From: a virus
Lineage: Duplodnaviria > Caudoviricetes
Reading direction: 5' to 3' (one strand)
IMG/VR virus record: IMGVR_UViG_2786546882_000003
Coordinates: 36,063 to 100,062 of that record
DNA: 64,000 nucleotides
The position numbers and the translations under genes were made by a program. Below the pieces are notes generated by a model. The model had not been told where the DNA came from, searched no databases, and saw nothing but the letters and a program-made list of their open reading frames with translations. The stretch's first letter is position 1; the number at the start of each line of letters is the position of its first letter. Positions 40,901 through 63,253 of the stretch are shown one piece after another.

Positions 40901-43746
40901 AGGAGATCGGCCAAAAGCGATTCGAGGCTTTGCAAGAGACGAAATATGAGATGCGGAAGCGAATGTTTCCGATCGCAAAGCAATTCCTCCAGAGCGAAGC
41001 ACTTGACTACGAAAAGCTCGTCGAAAAGCTTGGCGATGCGAAGAAGGCAAGAGGCGTTCTTAACACGAATTACCTGGAGGTGACTCGCTATCTTGAAGGT
41101 GGCACGGAACTTCTGGCTAAGGGCCAATCTCCAAAACTACCCGACGAACTGAAGCCGCTCATTCCTGCGATGGATGACATTCGCACTGCGCTGGATGAGA
41201 TCAGGCAGACCGAAATCAACAGCGGCCTCAAGTCTCCTCAGCTGGACGACATGTTCATCGACTACTTGCCTCGCCAGTTACAAGGGTTCCCGAACGACAA
41301 GTCGACTGGTTCTGGGAACTTAGGCAAGTTGTTTGAATTCGGAACTCCTTACCAGAAGCAACGCAAAGAATTTTTGCGAAATCTTCCAGGCGGAACATCC
41401 TCGATCAACAAACTGTCTCTTGATCCGCTTGTTTCGGGAATCGCCCATAGCTACCCTGGGTCTAAGATACCGGACGATGTCCTTCAGGAAGCAAAGAAGT
41501 ACCTGCGTGAATCATACGGCGGTGGTCAAGCAGGAAATAGAGAGCGAGATAGTATCTTCCATCTTGACATGGATGACAACAACAACGACTTGGATAAGCT
41601 TGCTCGGTGGATCACTGGTCTAGATCCAAGACATGCTGAACTCCAGGTTCCTGTATTCAAGCTTGATCCTGTTCAAAACGTGATGAACCGAATCGAATCT
41701 GGGCTTGCAGCGTCTTCGGCTGCTGATTTTACCACTGCGATGATTGCAAAAGCGGCTACCGAAGCTGGCGAAAATATATCAGATCCGAACTTGTACGATA
41801 TCCTGGTGGATAAGTTTGCAGTCGACGGCGCGGACGGCGACAAGATCAAGGAAATCGTCATCGGAAAGATGGGAGAAACCTTTCAGACTAAGCGTTTCGC
41901 GATGCAAGATGCTGCTGACAAGCTTGCGAGATCTCAGGTCGATGAATTGATTGCGAAATCGAATGTTACTGAAGATGGGATCTTGTTTGACGAGCCAGTC
42001 GTTGGTTCGATCGGTACAAGCAAGGCTAAGTTCCTCGGTGTCAAGGGTGATCAAGTTATCTATCAGTCTTCTGGCAAGAAAGGCTATGCTCCGCTTGACT
42101 CCATCGGTGGAAAAACTGTATCAGAAAACGATGTTCTCAAACAGTTTTCTATTCCTCAGCAACTGAGTGATGCGACATTCAGGTATCTCAAGGGGTTTAC
42201 TTCGCCTGAGGCACCCGATGCTATTCGCAAAGCACTGGGTCAAATCACTAGCCTATATAAGAGTCAGTTGACGATTCCTTGGCCAGCGTTCCATGTGCGC
42301 AACCTGCTGAGTGGTCAGTATGCAAACTGGCTGAACAACGCAACTGACCCTCGATATTCCGGTCCTCGCGCGATGGTCGAGCCGATTCGCGATGCGGACA
42401 GAGTTTTCAGAGGAGAATCCATACCTGACATCCTGAGCATTCCAGCGATTAAGGAGCTGGGGATAACCGATGAGTCTCAGGCTATGGAGTGGCTGCGCCA
42501 GGAGATCTTTGCAAACAAGCTTGTCGACTTTGGCCAAGGGATTTCAGCAGAGGCAGCTGCGAACAACTTGTCAGATATTCGCTCTCAGGTTGTCGGCCAA
42601 GTTCCGAAGAAGCGACGAGACATACTCGCTAAGTTGCCTCCGAGGCCGATTGGCGCATCGAAAGCGCAATCGTTCAATCCGTTGGCCGGAGCAGGAATCC
42701 TTGGTGCGACAGAGGATACATTTGGTCCGTATCGCTGGGGTCGGCAGGTTGGTGCATACACCGAGGGAATGAACCGCATTGCTCCTTTCATAGCATTTCT
42801 TCGGCAGGGGATGGACTCGCAAGAAGCTATGCGTCGAGTTCTTGCTGCACAGTTCGACTACAGCAAGATGACTCCGGCAGATCGTGACATCAAATTGTTG
42901 ATTCCGTTTTATGGATTTTCGCGAAACGTCCTGCCGTTCGTCGTCGGCAATCTTGTTCGCGATCCAGGCGGCGCGTTAGGGATGACAGTTCGCGCCACAA
43001 GAAACGCATCGGCAAGTCAGCCGTTGCCAGACTATCTTGCTGGCCAAACTGCAATCCCGTTTGGTACGCGAGGTGATGTGTCGGAGGGTAATTCGTCGTT
43101 CCTGACAGGATTTGGATTGCCGCACGAAGACACTCTTGGTCTGGCTGGTCTAGTAACAGGCGATCCAGCAGATGGCTTCAGGAATATTTTGTCTCGGATG
43201 AATCCGCTTGCCAAATCGCCGCTTGAATTGGCGTTTGGTGAGTCTACTTTCTTTGATGCCCCTGGAGGTGGGAGAGCACTGAAAGATCTTGATCCATTGG
43301 TTGGCCGTATTGGATCGAATATCAAAGACTTGGCGACTGGGTCTGATACCATGCGTGCTCAACCAGTCATGGGATCTCCATTACTAGAGCATGCGTTAGC
43401 TAACAGTCCGTTCAGCCGCGTCTTGACGACAGCGAGAACTATTACCGATCCAAGAAAGTGGAAGAACCCACTGAAACTTGGCCTCAATCTAGGCACAGGG
43501 ATGAGAGTGACCGACGTAAGCGAAAGCTCATGGGACGCAACAGTCAGCGACTTGATCTCAGAGAGAATGAGAGAGCTAGGCAGTCGCGATTTTGTCAGGA
43601 GCTATTTTCCGCAATATGCGCAAGAAGCAATGACAGACGAACAGCTTTCAGAAGCAAACTCACTGGAAGAGTTGATGAACTGGTTAGCGAATAGAGCTAA
43701 ACAGCGCAAGGCCGATCGAGAGGCTAAAGCCAATGCGCAAAACTAA
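37948..43746 (+). CDS. giant internal virion / polyvalent-type protein (1932 aa) with zincin domain
   Basis: TLVHEIGH...HEAFAQLF; GVKEEEIADLGL, YRELIL, AHIRL, RVNEIQSDW, DAPMKKSW; C-terminal PAFHVRN, FDYS, IPFYGF. Confidence 0.75.
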   Translation: MVDLLRAARLGTTPAIQDNEKKQQRLTPIRAATNRAEPDQSILSSLASTGLSGLAKVGNFLDLPGSVVRDVSTWLPGGIEAQNPVDQFLSPFTSENRVSGEDMLQSAGLAGENTWGGLAGGIATEIALDPLTYLSFGASAVGKAGTAAGKAGLTKNAKSVANELAGRTLGKESGKRLGATSARQTLTPRNLIDAAADPAEAMKRFKVAGGTDAMLDEKLGGVAKFSVPFLSKRYGDTVPALRERVLGTTDLTPSQLGAKPWMKGGDGPSGPDAGSAAKPKSPLDPNADTGLKNPTPEEFSAISPNHARFNQELDGLQQSGILDDADSEILRGIFSQSDLGGFDRVYFRPVKEISPEATPEIVSAYGANVPEIGGAATKTPDGGFDIQLSQKALADGNYVDTGIDTLVHEIGHAFLETTKKPQGEAGVDVVSEFDNLIKDGTLGRYFSDNYGPEKAAYFGQNPHEAFAQLFADSVIKRKGQEMPKPIESFLGKVRKFVSDMLSKVLGNKQLSGEARLRTDAMIDLVGGFIGPDQYKSIIGKADSASSKLDFYKPATRKMPGIEPDATGMFSQVARSLDAIFRESSSLPADQMLARLRKMPGVKEEEIADLGLDKLSGKRLSRNDITDHLSKNMLTMEEAINTGDRAGFSDLAVPGGDDGTYRELILKANAGGKRIEGGADTHWMGDDSIAHIRLDDVSLANGEKILRVNEIQSDWIQGLRKFGTKTEDLQSEAKSIKKEMSGNAVELFLTRQQIKQLGENAPPELLAKEQSLTQSVEQASSRITQIGKMPADAPMKKSWDSMAIKKIFDYAVANGYDGVSFVDGQDIAKVVQGPADALSGFYNKVQTLAGKIAKKYGSGKVSNEKLAGQFINDSEELRRGVTFPVTDEMRNTIGSGGQPRYKPAEKVAEAASAAKQGATKAASYANDMARRALSSVGELALDKDLGAAVGATMDTVGGFFKNSAPVRYLRATITPEMLGASTELGQEIGQKRFEALQETKYEMRKRMFPIAKQFLQSEALDYEKLVEKLGDAKKARGVLNTNYLEVTRYLEGGTELLAKGQSPKLPDELKPLIPAMDDIRTALDEIRQTEINSGLKSPQLDDMFIDYLPRQLQGFPNDKSTGSGNLGKLFEFGTPYQKQRKEFLRNLPGGTSSINKLSLDPLVSGIAHSYPGSKIPDDVLQEAKKYLRESYGGGQAGNRERDSIFHLDMDDNNNDLDKLARWITGLDPRHAELQVPVFKLDPVQNVMNRIESGLAASSAADFTTAMIAKAATEAGENISDPNLYDILVDKFAVDGADGDKIKEIVIGKMGETFQTKRFAMQDAADKLARSQVDELIAKSNVTEDGILFDEPVVGSIGTSKAKFLGVKGDQVIYQSSGKKGYAPLDSIGGKTVSENDVLKQFSIPQQLSDATFRYLKGFTSPEAPDAIRKALGQITSLYKSQLTIPWPAFHVRNLLSGQYANWLNNATDPRYSGPRAMVEPIRDADRVFRGESIPDILSIPAIKELGITDESQAMEWLRQEIFANKLVDFGQGISAEAAANNLSDIRSQVVGQVPKKRRDILAKLPPRPIGASKAQSFNPLAGAGILGATEDTFGPYRWGRQVGAYTEGMNRIAPFIAFLRQGMDSQEAMRRVLAAQFDYSKMTPADRDIKLLIPFYGFSRNVLPFVVGNLVRDPGGALGMTVRATRNASASQPLPDYLAGQTAIPFGTRGDVSEGNSSFLTGFGLPHEDTLGLAGLVTGDPADGFRNILSRMNPLAKSPLELAFGESTFFDAPGGGRALKDLDPLVGRIGSNIKDLATGSDTMRAQPVMGSPLLEHALANSPFSRVLTTARTITDPRKWKNPLKLGLNLGTGMRVTDVSESSWDATVSDLISERMRELGSRDFVRSYFPQYAQEAMTDEQLSEANSLEELMNWLANRAKQRKADREAKANAQN

Positions 43747-43910
43747 CATCCTCCAGCTCGAACACAAATCTGTCTACGAATGTTTTCAATCTTGTCCGGT
43801 GCAGCAGCAGGTCAGCACTAGCGCCTCCGCAGTATACTCCCTGCATGGCACTTCGCATTCCTATGAACTGATGCTTGGATAGTCGAAGCGTTGACATGAG
43901 TGGAGACATT

Positions 43911-44002
43911 AAAAACCTTGACTTATCTTACCATGTCGTACCATAACGTAACCCAACCCAACGGAACATGCTTTAACTTAACAAAGCAAAACTCGCGTTA
44001 AC
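43911..44002 (-). ncRNA. pentamer guide unit E (17 triplet+NN repeats, tail GTCAAGGTTTTT)
   Basis: - strand: gttAA cgcGA gttTT gctTT gttAA gttAA agcAT gttCC gttGG gttGG gttAC gttAT ggtAC gacAT ggtAA gatAA gtcAA ggttttt. Confidence 0.8.
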
Positions 44003-44010
44003 CGGCGATA

Positions 44011-44490
44011 CTACTTATTGAAAAGACTAAGTGTCTCTCCAATAGAAATCTCACTTGTAGACTTCTGGACCTTTGTTGCGATCTTTTTCGCAGATGTCTT
44101 CTTTGAAAACAGCGATATAGCTCCCATCTGCGCCGAAGCTACCACATGCTGTCTCTTGTAATCTTCCGGAAGAGAGTCGAACTTAACGACACTCAGTTTG
44201 TCGAGAGTCCTTTTTGACGCCCGAAGTATCCTAACTCTGTCGCTTTCGGTTGTGTCGACAATCTCCTCGTCATCGAGTCGCTTTAGCCCAACCCCTCGCT
44301 CTACCCCGAAGACAATACCACATTCGAGCAGTAAGCTTCGCCTCGCCGTGACTAGCGATGAAGATGCATGCTTACGCACGTCCCGGCCAATGGCCGTGCT
44401 AATTTCATCGTATGTTATTAACTGACCGACACTGGCAGCTTTGAGCATAGACTCAATAATTCGAGTGTCGGATGATTTTTCGTGGATCAT
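44011..44490 (-). CDS. accessory protein of the RAMP/pentamer locus, winged-helix-like N-terminus
   Basis: GQLITYDEISTAIGRDV...VFGVERGVGLKRL; embedded between units D and E. Confidence 0.65.
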   Translation of the reverse strand: MIHEKSSDTRIIESMLKAASVGQLITYDEISTAIGRDVRKHASSSLVTARRSLLLECGIVFGVERGVGLKRLDDEEIVDTTESDRVRILRASKRTLDKLSVVKFDSLPEDYKRQHVVASAQMGAISLFSKKTSAKKIATKVQKSTSEISIGETLSLFNK

Positions 44491-44523
44491 GGTGCATCTT
44501 CATCCTGAAAGGATCGTTATCCG

Positions 44524-44616
44524 AAAAAACCTTGACTTGTCTTGGCGCACTGCAACCAAACGAAACATAACGCAACAGGACCAAACAAAACGAGCCCTAA
44601 CGAAACGCAATGCGTT
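44524..44616 (-). ncRNA. pentamer guide unit D
   Basis: - strand: aacGC attGC gttTC gttAG ggcTC gttTT gttTG gtcCT gttGC gttAT gttTC gttTG gttGC agtGC gccAA gacAA gtcAA ggtttttt. Confidence 0.78.
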
Positions 44617-44621
44617 GAAAT

Positions 44622-44704
44622 AAAAAACCTTGACTTGTCTTACCAAAGCGCAACTCAACTCAACGAAACCAAACCCAACCTGACCCAACGAAACTAAACG
44701 CGAC
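44622..44704 (-). ncRNA. pentamer guide unit C
   Basis: - strand: gtcGC gttTA gttTC gttGG gtcAG gttGG gttTG gttTC gttGA gttGA gttGC gctTT ggtAA gacAA gtcAA ggtttttt. Confidence 0.8.
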
Positions 44705-44725
44705 TAATTGTATTGTTGTTGTGTT

Positions 44726-44813
44726 AAAAAGCCTTGACTTACCTCTCCGTGTCACAACGCAACTCACTCCAACGCAACCATACTCAGCACAACGCATCTA
44801 AACACAACGAGAA
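44726..44813 (-). ncRNA. pentamer guide unit B
   Basis: - strand: ttcTC gttGT gttTA gatGC gttGT gctGA gtaTG gttGC gttGG agtGA gttGC gttGT gacAC ggaGA ggtAA gtcAA ggcttttt. Confidence 0.78.
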
Positions 44814-44825
44814 TCAGTGCCAAGA

Positions 44826-45383
44826 CTAAACCCAGTCAACATCCTCAACGGAAAATCGACCGTAATAGCCGTTGTTTCTTGGGCGGAATCTGCCAACTCC
44901 GATGAACGAACCGGCGTCACGAAGGTGCTCAGTGAATACGTCTTTCGTGATAATCTCGTCAAGCACTAGGAACTCAACGACACCATCCCAATTCTGAACA
45001 AGCGGAAAGCACTTCTCTACTCGCTTGCTTCCTCCGCGCCGACCGTCGCTTGGAACGTGCAGCCATTCTCCGTGGATGTCGTCGATCTTTGTGTCAAGAA
45101 CGAGCGGCTCGACCACAAGAATCCCGGCTTCAAAGTGCTTTGTAAATGTTGACTTTCCTTTGCCTGGGATCTGGATTGATTTGTACTTTGCGGCTTCGGC
45201 CAGGCAGTTCTTAAAGCACATTGGTGGAATGAACAAATTGCCTTCTTTTGTAACGTGGCAGCGTTCTTTCCACACTCGCTTTTCAAAGTCTGCGTGAGTC
45301 TCGTCGCGACTCTTTTCGGACTGAATGAATCGGCCTTGGGAGTACGGGCTTGCACTCTTCAGGCGGCAGATTGCTTTCTTCAC
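44826..45383 (-). CDS. stand-alone RAMP/Cas7-like RNA-binding protein (Vipr-like), 185 aa
   Basis: N-terminal strand ICRLKSASPY, FIPPMCFKNCLAEAA (RAMP yiPg.s.Kg.l motif), C-terminal Gly-rich loop AGSFIGVGRFRPRNNGYYGRFSV; GTG start inferred. Confidence 0.75.
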   Translation of the reverse strand: MKKAICRLKSASPYSQGRFIQSEKSRDETHADFEKRVWKERCHVTKEGNLFIPPMCFKNCLAEAAKYKSIQIPGKGKSTFTKHFEAGILVVEPLVLDTKIDDIHGEWLHVPSDGRRGGSKRVEKCFPLVQNWDGVVEFLVLDEIITKDVFTEHLRDAGSFIGVGRFRPRNNGYYGRFSVEDVDWV

Positions 45384-45463
45384 AGGTATTCTCGCATCTT
45401 CAAGTATCACAGCAGACGAAAGGCACTGCTGACTGCCTTTGTGCTCATGCACATGACAAGACA

Positions 45464-45491
45464 ATCATACCCAAGTTGCGGAAGACGTCAA
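45464..45491 (-). promoter_or_regulatory. sigma70-type promoter of the RAMP gene
   Basis: - strand TTGACG, 16 nt, TATGAT. Confidence 0.7.
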
Positions 45492-45502
45492 CCAAAATCC
45501 AC

Positions 45503-45532
45503 AAAAAAATCCCAGGCTTGGGACCTGGGATT
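45503..45532 (-). terminator. intrinsic terminator after guide unit A
   Basis: - strand AATCCCAGG-loop-CCTGGGATT then TTTTT. Confidence 0.75.
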
Positions 45533-45624
45533 AAAAACCATGACATACCGTGACAGAACTCATCGTACTTTAACACAACGCATCTTGACGTATCAGGACG
45601 TGCTACGCCGTACGTCGACGTGTT
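45533..45624 (-). ncRNA. pentamer guide unit A
   Basis: - strand: aacAC gtcGA cgtAC ggcGT agcAC gtcCT gatAC gtcAA gatGC gttGT gttAA agtAC gatGA gttCT gtcAC ggtAT gtcAT ggttttt. Confidence 0.75.
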
Positions 45625-45628
45625 GATC

Positions 45629-45682
45629 AAAAAACCCAGCGCCGCAAGCTAGGAGGGTGGCATTGTGCCCGCGGCGCTGGGG
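45629..45682 (-). terminator. terminator-like hairpin after the 45697-46203 gene
   Basis: - strand CCCAGCGCCGC...GCGGCGCTGGG then TTTTTT, with a long loop. Confidence 0.55.
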
Positions 45683-45696
45683 TGCTGGTTGAATCG

Positions 45697-46203
45697 CTAT
45701 GCGCTGTAGTCAGGCAGCGCTTCGCAGACCTCGTAAAGAAACTCGACGGTCACGAGACCGCCAGCAGTGAATTTCTCGTCCGATGCAGTTCCACCAGTCT
45801 GGCAAGTGTAGAGCGATACTGTCGTTTCACTTGCAATGACTGCATGCGCAATCATGCTTGTGACTTTCGTATTCGCTGTCAGCGCAGACGTGAGCCCGTA
45901 AAGATCTGGATCTGCGGCAGTTCCAACTCCGATTTTTGCGAAATTGTCTGACCCGGAGCCGTCGCCGGTTACAGCCGTGTCGATTCGAGCACGAACTGCC
46001 TTGACAACAGCCCCCGCTGGAAGAGTATTTGTCAAGTCGACCTTGAGCGAGTTTGTCAATGTGACTTGCTCGCTGAAAGACACCAAGTCTGTGATGTCTT
46101 GCTCGACCTCAACCTCTTCCAAGATCTCCTTGATCTCGTCCGCAGCTGCCTTGTTGCCAAGCGCCGTCTGTAGGGACCGCACGGTCCCGCTCTTCAGTGT
46201 CAT
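45697..46203 (-). CDS. virion-type beta-sandwich protein (capsid decoration-like)
   Basis: TLPAGAVVKAV....TAVT, IGVGTAADPDLY, FTAGGLVTVEFLY pattern. Confidence 0.55.
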   Translation of the reverse strand: MTLKSGTVRSLQTALGNKAAADEIKEILEEVEVEQDITDLVSFSEQVTLTNSLKVDLTNTLPAGAVVKAVRARIDTAVTGDGSGSDNFAKIGVGTAADPDLYGLTSALTANTKVTSMIAHAVIASETTVSLYTCQTGGTASDEKFTAGGLVTVEFLYEVCEALPDYSA

Positions 46204-53226: not shown

Positions 53227-53280
53227 GCTAGGTCCTCCACAATCTATATGCGCAAACCTGATCGTCCGTGAACGAATGTG

Positions 53281-53340
53281 AGAAGATTTGGGAAGATGTG
53301 GGAAAATATGAGAAGATGTGAGAAAACTTGAGAAAATCTG
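53281..53340. repeat. six tandem 10-bp direct repeats, consensus RGAARAYNTG
   Basis: agaagatttg ggaagatgtg ggaaaatatg agaagatgtg agaaaacttg agaaaatctg. Confidence 0.85.
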
Positions 53341-53418
53341 GGAATGGATCGGAATGTCGCGATGTATGCAATGTTTCGTGGCAAAACCGAAACTCGCCCG
53401 AAATCTATATGCGCCAAG

Positions 53419-63166: not shown

Positions 63167-63181
63167 GTTGCTTCCATTGAG

Positions 63182-63253
63182 CAGGGTGCTAGGGAATCGA
63201 ACCCCAATTGTCCGCTCAGAAGGCGGTTGTCTTATCCATTAGACGAGCACCCC
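63182..63253 (-). tRNA. tRNA-Arg(TCT)
   Basis: Acceptor GGGGTGC/GCACCCT, D-arm GTCT/AGAC, anticodon loop CTTCTGA, T-arm TGGGG TTCGATT CCCTA; one mismatch in the anticodon stem; no encoded CCA. Confidence 0.85.

What the first reader, a model, noticed from the sequence alone, without database searches (positions are those of the whole stretch)
45533..45624. Unit A decodes to a homologue of the neighbouring virion-type gene (46024-46074)
The NN series AC GA AC GT AC CT AC AA GC GT AA AC GA CT AC AT AT is compatible with T-E-T-V-T-L-T-N-A-V-K-T-D-L-T-I-I. The 45697-46203 gene reads agc gag caa gtc aca ttg aca aac tcg ctc aag gtc gac ttg aca aat act (SEQVTLTNSLKVDLTNT). That is 8/17 dinucleotides, 23/34 bases and 10/17 compatible residues, two of them synonymous CTn/TTG. 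Unit A has the most degenerate triplets and lies between two terminators upstream of the RAMP promoter, so it may be older or separately expressed.
Basis: partly seen in the sequence, partly recalled or inferred. Interest (0 to 1): 0.85.

Follow-up and report, generated by a model that had tools for sequence, protein, structure and literature searches.

The report
Phage VIPR guide aimed at rivals' virion gene
Unit A is a guide RNA gene of a phage-borne VIPR system (an RNA-guided DNA silencer described in 2026), and its two-bases-per-codon code spells a conserved motif of the neighbouring virion-type gene as related phages carry it, not as this phage does.

Summary

**The element.** Unit A (45533-45624, minus strand) is one of five period-5 arrays around a Vipr (RAMP) gene. 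It has 15 guide units of G-N-Y plus NN, then a short 3' tail.

**The resident match.** The counts are reproduced: 8/17 dinucleotides and 23/34 bases, or 21/30 for the 15 guide units. This is the best site in the window. Alone it is at chance level: P is about 0.07 on the contig, and unrelated MAG sites reach 22/30.

**The orthologue test succeeds.**
- At the homologous site of 11 orthologues, guide A scores 27, 26, 26, 26, 25 and 24 of 30 in six of them. The published target cut-off is 80%.
- The signal appears only under the 1-nt-skip rule.
- Shuffled guides never exceed 24.
- One family protein fits 14 of 15 codons.
- Guide B hits a second conserved site of the same gene, 25/28.

**The target gene.** It encodes a jelly-roll domain like phage cement and fibre proteins.

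**Classification.** This is a new member of VIPR with a non-canonical GUY scaffold. Expression of unit A and silencing remain inferred.

**Earlier notes.** Notes of this scan cover other units of this same locus. None concern other DNA.

The parts
45550..45624 (-). Guide region of vrRNA unit A: 15 five-base units (G-N-Y scaffold plus NN)
   Evidence: Register and sequence. Period-5 signal. Scaffold counts. NN series scored.
45533..45549 (-). 3' tail of unit A (GGTat GTCat GGTTTTT), one five-base unit shorter than in units C, D and E and matching unit B's last units
   Evidence: Alignment of the five units by their tails.
45501..45532 (-). Terminator-like hairpin plus T7 run directly after unit A
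   Evidence: 10-pair stem at 45532-45508, followed by a T-run.
45629..45653 (-). Terminator-like hairpin plus T6 run after the 168-aa gene, directly upstream of unit A
45464..45491 (-). Sigma-70-like promoter (TTGACG, 16-nt spacer, TATGAT) in front of vipr
   Evidence: 10 of 12 consensus positions matched.
44826..45383 (-). vipr: 185-aa RAMP protein
   Evidence: A profile of five clade members hits PDB 36pp_D, 'SUSP1 Vipr protein', at E=4e-7. The AF2 model has pLDDT 86, and its best folds are Cas7, Csm3 and gRAMP. Homologues lie beside period-5 arrays in L007, L045, L055, L085, L146 and L147.
44726..44813 (-). vrRNA unit B, whose guide hits a second site of the same gene family
   Evidence: 25/28 in L133 and L134, and 14/28 at the resident site.
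44622..44704 (-). vrRNA unit C
44524..44616 (-). vrRNA unit D
44011..44490 (-). Accessory (vap-like) 159-aa gene
Evidence: tblastn finds homologues next to vipr in L055 and L085. There is no Pfam or PHROG hit.
43911..44002 (-). vrRNA unit E
45697..46203 (-). Resident 168-aa jelly-roll gene, the self copy of the target family
   Evidence: Homologues. AF2 model with pLDDT 85.7. Fold matches.
46030..46074 (-). Resident, sub-threshold site for guide A (21/30, 70%), codons SEQVTLTNSLKVDLT
45775..45816 (-). Resident counterpart of the guide B site (14/28, 50%)

Best explanation
Unit A is a vrRNA gene of a phage-encoded VIPR system.

**Proposed mechanism.** The transcript is bound by a filament of the neighbouring Vipr RAMP protein, one protomer per five-base unit. 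The protein buries each scaffold trinucleotide (here G-N-Y, mostly GUY in the sister units) and presents the 15 NN dinucleotides. These pair with double-stranded DNA while skipping every third base.

**What the guide spells.** It reads codon positions 1-2 of the motif (T)-E-T-V-T-L-T-N-A-V-K-T-D-L-T. This is the most conserved stretch of a jelly-roll virion-surface domain. The phage's own copy is the adjacent gene 45697-46203. That copy carries nine mismatches (70% match) and so falls below the 80% level used to call VIPR targets. Copies in related phages match at 80-90%.

**Most likely role.** The guide silences this gene in competing related phages during co-infection or in a lysogen while sparing self. 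Guide B does the same at a second site of the same gene.

**Shown here.**
- The array anatomy.
- Homology of the protein to SUSP1 Vipr.
- Matches to orthologues that are specific to the 1-nt-skip rule.
- A self match below threshold.

**Inferred.** Transcription and loading of unit A, DNA binding, silencing, and the ecological target.
For: **System membership.**
- Five in-register period-5 arrays share a common 3' tail.
- The 185-aa protein is homologous to the solved SUSP1 Vipr (E=4e-7) and has a Cas7-like RAMP fold.
- Loci found purely by the DNA pattern (AACNN)x6 encode 38-49% identical proteins next to the arrays.
- More distant homologues in phages LESphi2 and DSL-LC04 sit behind three canonical GGY/NN arrays.

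**Guide A target.**
- Orthologue sites score 27, 26, 26, 26, 25, 24, 23, 22, 21, 20 and 19 of 30. The resident scores 21.
- The signal is specific to skip 1, and shuffled guides reach at most 24.
- Where the resident mismatches the guide and the orthologue differs from the resident, the orthologue base is the guide base in 8/9 positions (L128, L133) and 7/8 (L126). That gives P of about 1e-3 each.
- At protein level one representative (P0024) fits 14/15 codons and four others fit 13/15. Shuffled guides reach at most 10.
- Nothing reaches 27/30 or more in 401 genomes of the same order.

**Independent support from guide B.** It reaches 25/28 in L133 and L134 and 23/28 in L128, again only with skip 1. 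Both guides pass 80% in L128 and in L133.

**Agreement with published VIPR behaviour.**
- The skipped base falls on the wobble position.
- Both DNA strands can be targeted.
- No self hit reaches 80%.
- In the October 2026 preprint, vrRNA-targeting vrRNAs match their own phage's vrRNA locus less well than other phages' loci.

Sources: bioRxiv 10.64898/2026.04.26.720920 and 10.64898/2026.10.15.759431.

**A plausible rival.** L128 is a syntenic relative. It has a giant gene 31% identical, convergent with the orthologue, and no VIPR arrays in the gap between them.
Against: - No orthologue with DNA in hand is a perfect match; the best is 27/30.
- Unit A has the weakest scaffold of the five. Only 7/15 units are full GTY.
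- Its tail is one five-base unit shorter than the tails of units C-E.
- It lies between two terminator-like hairpins, with no recognisable promoter upstream. It could therefore be poorly expressed or poorly loaded.
- The resident gene is not measurably more diverged inside the two guide footprints than elsewhere. Identity to the family consensus is 0.55 in both, and near-invariant columns are violated in 4/13 inside against 3/26 outside (P=0.15). Selection for escape is not shown.
- The 1-nt-skip rule and the 80% cut-off were established for GGY systems, not for this GUY scaffold.
- There are no expression or binding data.
Confidence: 0.78

Rival explanations
1. The resemblance between unit A's NN series and the neighbouring gene is a chance match. 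It has no targeting meaning.
For: The resident match alone (21/30, or 23/34) is reached by about 7% of shuffled guides on the contig. Unrelated sites in the MAG exceed it at 22/30.
Against: - Orthologue sites reach 24-27/30, only under the 1-nt-skip rule, and shuffled guides reach at most 24.
- Changes relative to the resident go to the guide base in 8/9 positions.
- Compatibility at protein level is 14/15 codons, against at most 10 for shuffles.
- A second guide hits the same gene.
- There are no hits of 27/30 or more in 401 genomes.
Confidence: 0.04
2. Unit A is a decaying or silent vrRNA relic. It once targeted this gene family but is no longer transcribed or loaded onto Vipr.
For: - The scaffold is the most degenerate of the five, with T at position 2 in only 7/15 units.
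- The tail is shorter than in units C-E.
- Terminator-like hairpins lie on both sides, and no promoter-like site lies upstream.
Against: - The third scaffold position is still a pyrimidine in 15/15 units and G1 is kept in 11/15.
- The NN code still matches living orthologues at 87-90%, including within the units that have poor scaffolds.
- An upstream vrRNA is a normal part of described VIPR loci: vrRNA1 in SUSP1, and three upstream arrays in LESphi2 and DSL-LC04.
- The preprint notes frequent internal degeneracy of vrRNAs.
Confidence: 0.13
3. Unit A regulates the phage's own gene 45697-46203. Partial pairing (70%) would tune its expression rather than attack rivals.
For: The best site in the window is the adjacent resident gene, in codon register and on the same strand.
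Against: - 70% is below the 80% level at which natural targets were called. The preprint reports that perturbing NN pairing abolished silencing.
- The guide agrees with the family consensus exactly where the resident differs: A, V and T against S, L and V.
- Guide B matches the resident at only 50%.
Confidence: 0.05

Closest known systems
Type II VIPR of Escherichia phage SUSP1 and the Pseudomonas fulva prophage (bioRxiv 10.64898/2026.04.26.720920; structures in 10.64898/2026.04.26.720927)
   Same: - It is phage-borne.
- It has a small RAMP protein homologous to SUSP1 Vipr (PDB 36pp_D, E=4e-7).
- It has roughly 90-nt RNA units made of 13-16 five-base repeats plus a conserved 3' tail.
- One unit lies upstream of vipr and a three-unit array lies downstream.
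- It has a small accessory gene.
- Targets are inferred under the 1-nt-skip rule, with the skipped base on the wobble position.
- The self match is below 80%.
   Different: - The scaffold is GUY (G-N-Y in unit A), not GGY.
- The G-loop Asp that reads G1 in SUSP1 (D177) is Arg, Gln or Thr in all five members of this clade.
- The three-unit array lies between vipr and the accessory gene, and a fifth unit follows that gene.
- The tail is about 22 nt and no pseudoknot was shown.
- The inferred targets are virion genes homologous to the phage's own neighbouring genes, rather than satellites, prophage regulators or other VIPR loci.
- The probable host lineage is planctomycete-like. One orthologue lies in a Pirellulaceae MAG.
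Non-canonical VIPR arrays found by entropy periodicity (bioRxiv 10.64898/2026.10.21.760802)
   Same: That work reports 21 clusters of period-5 arrays with fixed trinucleotides other than GGY (GAC/NN, CAC/NN, WGT/NN, TGH/NN), each next to a Vipr-like fold. GAC/NN may be the opposite strand of the GTC/NN units seen here.
   Different: The text of that paper gives no targets for these arrays. Here natural-target inference shows the 1-nt-skip rule operating with a GUY scaffold. I could not see its figure S10 to check whether GTT/NN (AAC/NN) is listed.
vrRNA-targeting vrRNAs of SUSP1-family phages with low self-match (bioRxiv 10.64898/2026.10.15.759431)
   Same: The guides are directed at relatives' versions of a sequence the carrier also has. 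Self-match scores are lower than non-self scores, which avoids autoimmunity. The codon-periodic code limits escape by synonymous change.
   Different: In those phages the targets are vipr genes, vrRNA loci or satellites. Here the target is a structural-type gene, and the carrier keeps a full VIPR locus.
Class 1 CRISPR crRNA with a Cas7 backbone
   Same: A RAMP filament on a guide RNA, with thumb-driven periodic interruption of pairing. The Vipr model's best fold matches are Cas7 of type VII, Csm3, Cmr4 and gRAMP.
   Different: The period is 5 nt with 2 paired bases, not 6 nt with 5 paired. There are no repeat-spacer array, no other cas genes and no adaptation module. Rfam finds no CRISPR repeat in the window.

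Membership tests
VIPR (Viral Interference Programmable Repeat) | A Vipr protein: a small single-RRM RAMP with a G-loop and thumb, homologous to described Viprs | tested here: met
   Profile A4 hits PDB 36pp_D, 'SUSP1 Vipr protein', at E=4e-7. The AF2 model has pLDDT 86 and its top Foldseek hits are Cas7-type RAMPs at E 7e-7 to 1e-4.
VIPR (Viral Interference Programmable Repeat) | vrRNAs made of about 9-16 tandem five-base units: a fixed trinucleotide alternating with hypervariable NN | tested here: met
   There are five units of 13-16 repeats with a period-5 signal more than 8 sd above the window mean. Unit A has 15 repeats.
VIPR (Viral Interference Programmable Repeat) | The fixed trinucleotide is GGY (the canonical consensus) | tested here: not met
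   The scaffold is GTY in units B-E and G-N-Y in unit A. Non-GGY scaffolds are reported as divergent VIPR in 10.64898/2026.10.21.760802.
VIPR (Viral Interference Programmable Repeat) | A conserved 3' tail after the repeat tract (a pseudoknot in the SUSP1 clade) | tested here: inconclusive
   The five units share a conserved tail (GGTAAGAYAAGTCAAGGTTTTT; shorter in units A and B). The consensus fold is weak at -4.5 kcal/mol, and no pseudoknot was tested.
VIPR (Viral Interference Programmable Repeat) | Natural targets under the 1-nt-skip (NNx) rule at 80% NN match or more, with the skip base on the wobble position | tested here: met
   Guide A scores 27/30, 26/30 (three loci), 25/30 and 24/30 in orthologues, all in codon register. 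Skips of 0, 2 and 3 give at most 20. Guide B scores 25/28.
VIPR (Viral Interference Programmable Repeat) | No self-target at 80% or more on the carrier's own contig | tested here: met
   The best self hit of guide A on C155 is 21/30, or 70%. The own-genome maxima are A 22/30, B 21/28, C 19/26, D 22/30 and E 24/32.
VIPR (Viral Interference Programmable Repeat) | An accessory vap gene beside vipr | tested here: inconclusive
The 159-aa gene has homologues next to vipr in L055 and L085. It has no Pfam or PHROG match.
VIPR (Viral Interference Programmable Repeat) | vrRNA is expressed, co-purifies with Vipr, and directs DNA binding and silencing | not testable with these tools
   This needs sRNA-seq, pull-down and reporter assays.
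VIPR (Viral Interference Programmable Repeat) | Carried by a phage or provirus | tested here: met
   The neighbours are phage SSB, dNMP kinase, exonuclease, a Holliday-junction resolvase and a MazG-like enzyme. The contig is 100 kb with GC of 54.5%, against 57.7% for the MAG.
CRISPR-Cas | A repeat-spacer array and cas operon | tested here: not met
   Rfam at gathering threshold finds only a tRNA in the window. The arrays have a 5-nt period. Only one RAMP gene is present.

The most novel reading that the evidence does not exclude
The VIPR cassette and the resistant alleles of its own targets may form one linked selfish module.

**What supports this.**
- The cassette sits in the gap between two convergent genes, the giant virion gene and the jelly-roll gene. 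In the syntenic relative L128 these lie 1.4 kb apart with no VIPR between them; in L130 the orthologue follows the giant gene directly on the same strand.
- Guides A and B are aimed at one of these two flanking gene families.
- According to other notes of this scan, which I did not test, guides E and C are aimed at the other.

**What would follow.** In mixed infections the cassette would silence the rivals' virion genes. Recombinants could escape only by acquiring the cassette together with its flanking immune alleles. The outcome would be marker exclusion or drive, like that of phage homing-endonuclease loci, but achieved by RNA-guided repression.
Probability: 0.15. Interest if true: 0.7.

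Novelty: new member of a known kind. Interest (0 to 1): 0.5.

Why it matters
VIPR was described only in 2026, and almost entirely from GGY-scaffold systems of enterobacterial and Pseudomonas phages.

This locus belongs to a divergent clade with a GUY scaffold and an altered G-loop, carried by an uncultured phage of about 100 kb. It still obeys the one-base-skip, codon-periodic code. That extends the rule by natural-target evidence.

It also gives a concrete, testable guide-target pair: unit A against the motif VTLTNAVKTDLT. Its non-self versions are L128 and L133, and its self version is the resident gene. The pair is suited to measuring how many mismatches protect self.

Finally, it shows a phage aiming guides at relatives' versions of its own neighbouring virion-type gene. 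That is a plain case of phage-against-phage competition.

Tried and rejected
**Readings I considered before finding the VIPR papers and then dropped.**
- A plus-strand reading with TTGACT as a -35 box. There is no conserved -10.
- A TRAP-like protein-binding triplet array.
- An array of GTT primase recognition sites.
- A decoy for tRNA-Asn or an anticodon nuclease.
- A DGR template.

**Searches that gave nothing.**
- Rfam at gathering threshold found only a tRNA.
- blastn of 43700-45700 against 50,697 phage records gave no match.
- The search for related loci with the single resident protein on viral contigs found no relatives. The alignment-based query was needed.
- Exact scans of viral contigs with guide sub-patterns (positions 3-11 and 7-15) gave only chance hits in non-homologous DNA.
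- A scan of 401 genomes of the same order for 27/30 or more found none.

**Ideas tested and not supported.**
- Focused escape of the resident gene inside the guide footprints. Identity is 0.55 inside and 0.55 outside, and Fisher P=0.15.
- A stable conserved tail structure. The consensus fold is weak.

**Tool failure.** I could not obtain DNA for P0002-P0004, for P0024, or for the 34 contigs carrying the identical resident protein.

Full report
**What is at 45533-45624.**

On the plus strand the stretch reads as NN followed by xAC with a strict five-base period. A scan of the whole window for periodic column information puts it among six outliers at period 5: 3.8 bits against a mean of 0.74 and sd of 0.33. 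Four of the others lie within 1.7 kb, at 43918, 44541, 44622 and 44732.

Read on the minus strand and aligned by their ends, the five units are in register. Each has a run of trinucleotide-plus-NN units and then a common tail, GGTaa GAYaa GTCaa GGTTTTT.

Unit A has 15 repeat units (45624 down to 45550). They are not guide positions.

In unit A the third scaffold base is a pyrimidine in 15/15 units and the first is G in 11/15. The second is T in only 7/15.

Two minus-strand terminator-like hairpins with T-runs bracket the unit. A sigma-70-like promoter follows it, in front of the next gene.

**What system it belongs to.**

A literature search run in the same turn found the source. This is bioRxiv 10.64898/2026.04.26.720920, together with a structural preprint (10.64898/2026.04.26.720927) and a competition study (10.64898/2026.10.15.759431).

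In these systems a small RAMP protein, Vipr, polymerises on a roughly 100-nt vrRNA made of 9-16 GGY/NN units plus a 3' tail. It hides each GGY and presents the NN. The NN pair with double-stranded DNA while one target base in three is skipped. Natural targets were called at 80% NN match or more, mostly in codon register with the skip on the wobble base. No self hits reached 80%.

I tested membership directly:
- The 185-aa product of 44826-45383 has 38-49% identical homologues in four viral contigs that had been found only by the DNA pattern (AACNN)x6. In each the gene lies beside the arrays.
- A profile of these five proteins hits the solved 'SUSP1 Vipr protein' (PDB 36pp_D) at E=4e-7.
- The AlphaFold model (pLDDT 86) is most similar to Cas7 of type VII, Csm3, Cmr4 and gRAMP.
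- More distant homologues in Pseudomonas phage LESphi2 and phage DSL-LC04 sit directly behind three canonical GGY/NN arrays.

So this is a VIPR locus whose scaffold is GUY rather than GGY. Non-GGY scaffolds have been reported in general terms in 10.64898/2026.10.21.760802.

**Is the resident match more than chance?**

The site is the single best hit on either strand of the window.

That is not strong evidence by itself. Over the whole 100-kb contig, 7% of order-shuffled guides reach the same maximum. Elsewhere in the MAG, unrelated sites score 22/30.

**The orthologue test.**

The 168-aa protein has few close relatives. In their alignment the motif reads VTLTNAVK-DLT. The resident has VTLTNSLKVDLT, and the guide encodes A, V and T at exactly the three differing codons.

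I obtained orthologue DNA with alignment-based locus searches. Guide A at the homologous site scores:

| Locus | Score out of 30 |
|---|---|
| L128 | 27 |
| L126 | 26 |
| L133 | 26 |
| L134 | 26 |
| L132 | 25 |
| L142 | 24 |
| L130 | 23 |
| L127 | 22 |
| L129 | 21 |
| L131 | 20 |
| L135 | 19 |
| Resident | 21 |

Six of the eleven loci meet the published 80% cut-off.

Controls on the same loci:
- Skip lengths of 0, 2 and 3 give maxima of 20, 20 and 19.
- The reversed guide gives 19.
- 500 order-shuffled guides give a mean of 19.6 and a maximum of 24.
- Guides C, D and E reach only 66-69%.

A conditional test removes the dependence on the resident match. It looks at positions where the resident mismatches the guide and the orthologue differs from the resident. 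There the orthologue carries the guide base in 8/9 positions (L128, L133) and 7/8 (L126), against 1/3 expected. That gives P of about 1e-3 each.

No site with 27/30 or more exists in 401 genomes of the host's order.

A profile search of 1.84 billion representatives shows the family is large: 439 clusters, and in all 150 listed representatives the match reaches the C-terminal end of the protein. At protein level one member fits 14/15 guide codons and four others fit 13/15. Shuffled guides reach at most 10.

**An independent second guide.**

Guide B was not part of this finding. It hits the same orthologues 258-261 nt downstream, at the motif SVYAVDNAGAAVTE. It scores 25/28 in L133 and L134 and 23/28 in L128 and L129, again only with a one-base skip. 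Shuffled guides reach at most 21, and the resident counterpart scores 14/28.

In both L128 and L133, guides A and B pass 80%. The closest protein relative, P0002, fits 13/14 guide B codons.

**What the target is.**
- The AlphaFold model of the resident protein (pLDDT 85.7) has a jelly-roll from residue 38 onwards.
- Its best solved matches are a baseplate-tail chain of siphophage R4C and capsid-associated chains of cyanophage Pam1, Ralstonia phage GP4 and the Helicobacter phages KHP30 and KHP40, whose chain is titled a cement protein.
- Among predicted viral structures the best matches are tail fibre and structural proteins.
- Orthologues carry the domain at the C-terminus, behind a Phage_cement_2 domain (L129) or behind a decoration-like domain plus collagen repeats (L135).
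- In L133 the gene lies beside a head protein.

'Virion-type' is therefore reasonable for the family. In this phage, though, the gene is the last of a minus-strand operon of DNA-metabolism genes.

**Who the rivals might be.**

L128 is a syntenic relative. Its orthologue is convergent with a 2022-aa gene that is 31% identical to the window's 1932-aa gene, and the 1.4-kb gap between them holds no period-5 arrays. L130 has the giant gene's end followed directly by the orthologue.

The VIPR cassette thus occupies the variable gap between two genes that are adjacent in relatives.

**What is not shown.**
- Expression, processing and loading of unit A are unknown. No promoter-like site lies between the upstream terminator and the unit.
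- The resident gene is the most diverged family member overall. It is not significantly more diverged inside the guide footprints than outside. Self-sparing may simply reflect divergence rather than selected escape.
- No 28-30/30 target was found.
The DNA of the closest protein relatives could not be scored.

**Verdict.**

Unit A is a VIPR guide whose code spells the relatives' version of the neighbouring jelly-roll gene.

It is a new member of a kind described in 2026, with a non-canonical scaffold. The interest is moderate. It gives natural-target evidence that the one-base-skip code holds outside GGY systems, and it provides a clean self/non-self pair for experiment.

Noticed in passing
window 44726-44813 (unit B); L133:2914-2955; window 45775-45816: Guide B targets a second conserved site (SVYAVDNAGAAVTE) of the same gene family. 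It scores 25/28 in L133 and L134 and 23/28 in L128 and L129. The resident counterpart scores 14/28.
   Followed up: yes
window 44826-45383; L007, L045, L055, L085; L146, L147: The G-loop residue co-varies with the RNA scaffold. GGY-type Viprs have Asp (SUSP1 GVGDWR, LESphi2 GLCDYR, DSL-LC04 GVGDFR). All five GTY-type proteins have Arg, Gln or Thr at that position (GVGRFR, GLLRFR, GLGRFR, GVGQYR, GLLTFR).
   Followed up: partly
L146 (OQ594955.1, Pseudomonas phage LESphi2) 1957-2968; L147 (OR003939.1, phage DSL-LC04) 2010-2926: Two public phage records carry apparently unannotated VIPR loci. Each has three tandem canonical GGY/NN arrays directly upstream of a Vipr homologue. That gene is annotated 'hypothetical protein' in one record and 'helix-turn-helix transcriptional regulator' in the other. 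In LESphi2 the locus lies beside the cI/cro region.
   Followed up: partly
L128:8478-9846, compared with window 43747-45696: A syntenic relative has the jelly-roll gene convergent with the giant gene, and the gap between them holds no VIPR arrays. The VIPR cassette in the window occupies that variable gap.
   Followed up: partly
L023, L068, L111, L123 (viral contigs): These contigs hold further multi-unit NNAAC (GTT/NN) arrays with header-like ends, eight in L023. tblastn with the resident Vipr found no homologue in the fetched stretches. They may be solo vrRNAs, or the Vipr may be more diverged or lie outside the fetched stretch.
   Followed up: no
window 53272-53350: About eight tandem 10-bp units (TGRGAARATN) lie in the gap between two plus-strand ORFs. 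They look like iterons or a regulator-binding array and are unrelated to the period-5 units.
   Followed up: no
proteins P0006-P0154: The jelly-roll domain always sits at the C-terminus of proteins of 121-829 aa. There are 439 clusters at E of 1e-3 or better. It looks like a widespread distal module of phage decoration or fibre proteins that has no Pfam family.
   Followed up: partly
window 41359 region (C155:77421, plus strand): Guide E's best hit in the whole MAG is 24/32 inside the resident giant gene. It reaches only 21/32 across the orthologue loci, which include the giant-gene homologues of L128 and L130.
   Followed up: partly
window 63181-63253 (minus strand): A phage-borne tRNA-Arg (TCT).
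   Followed up: no
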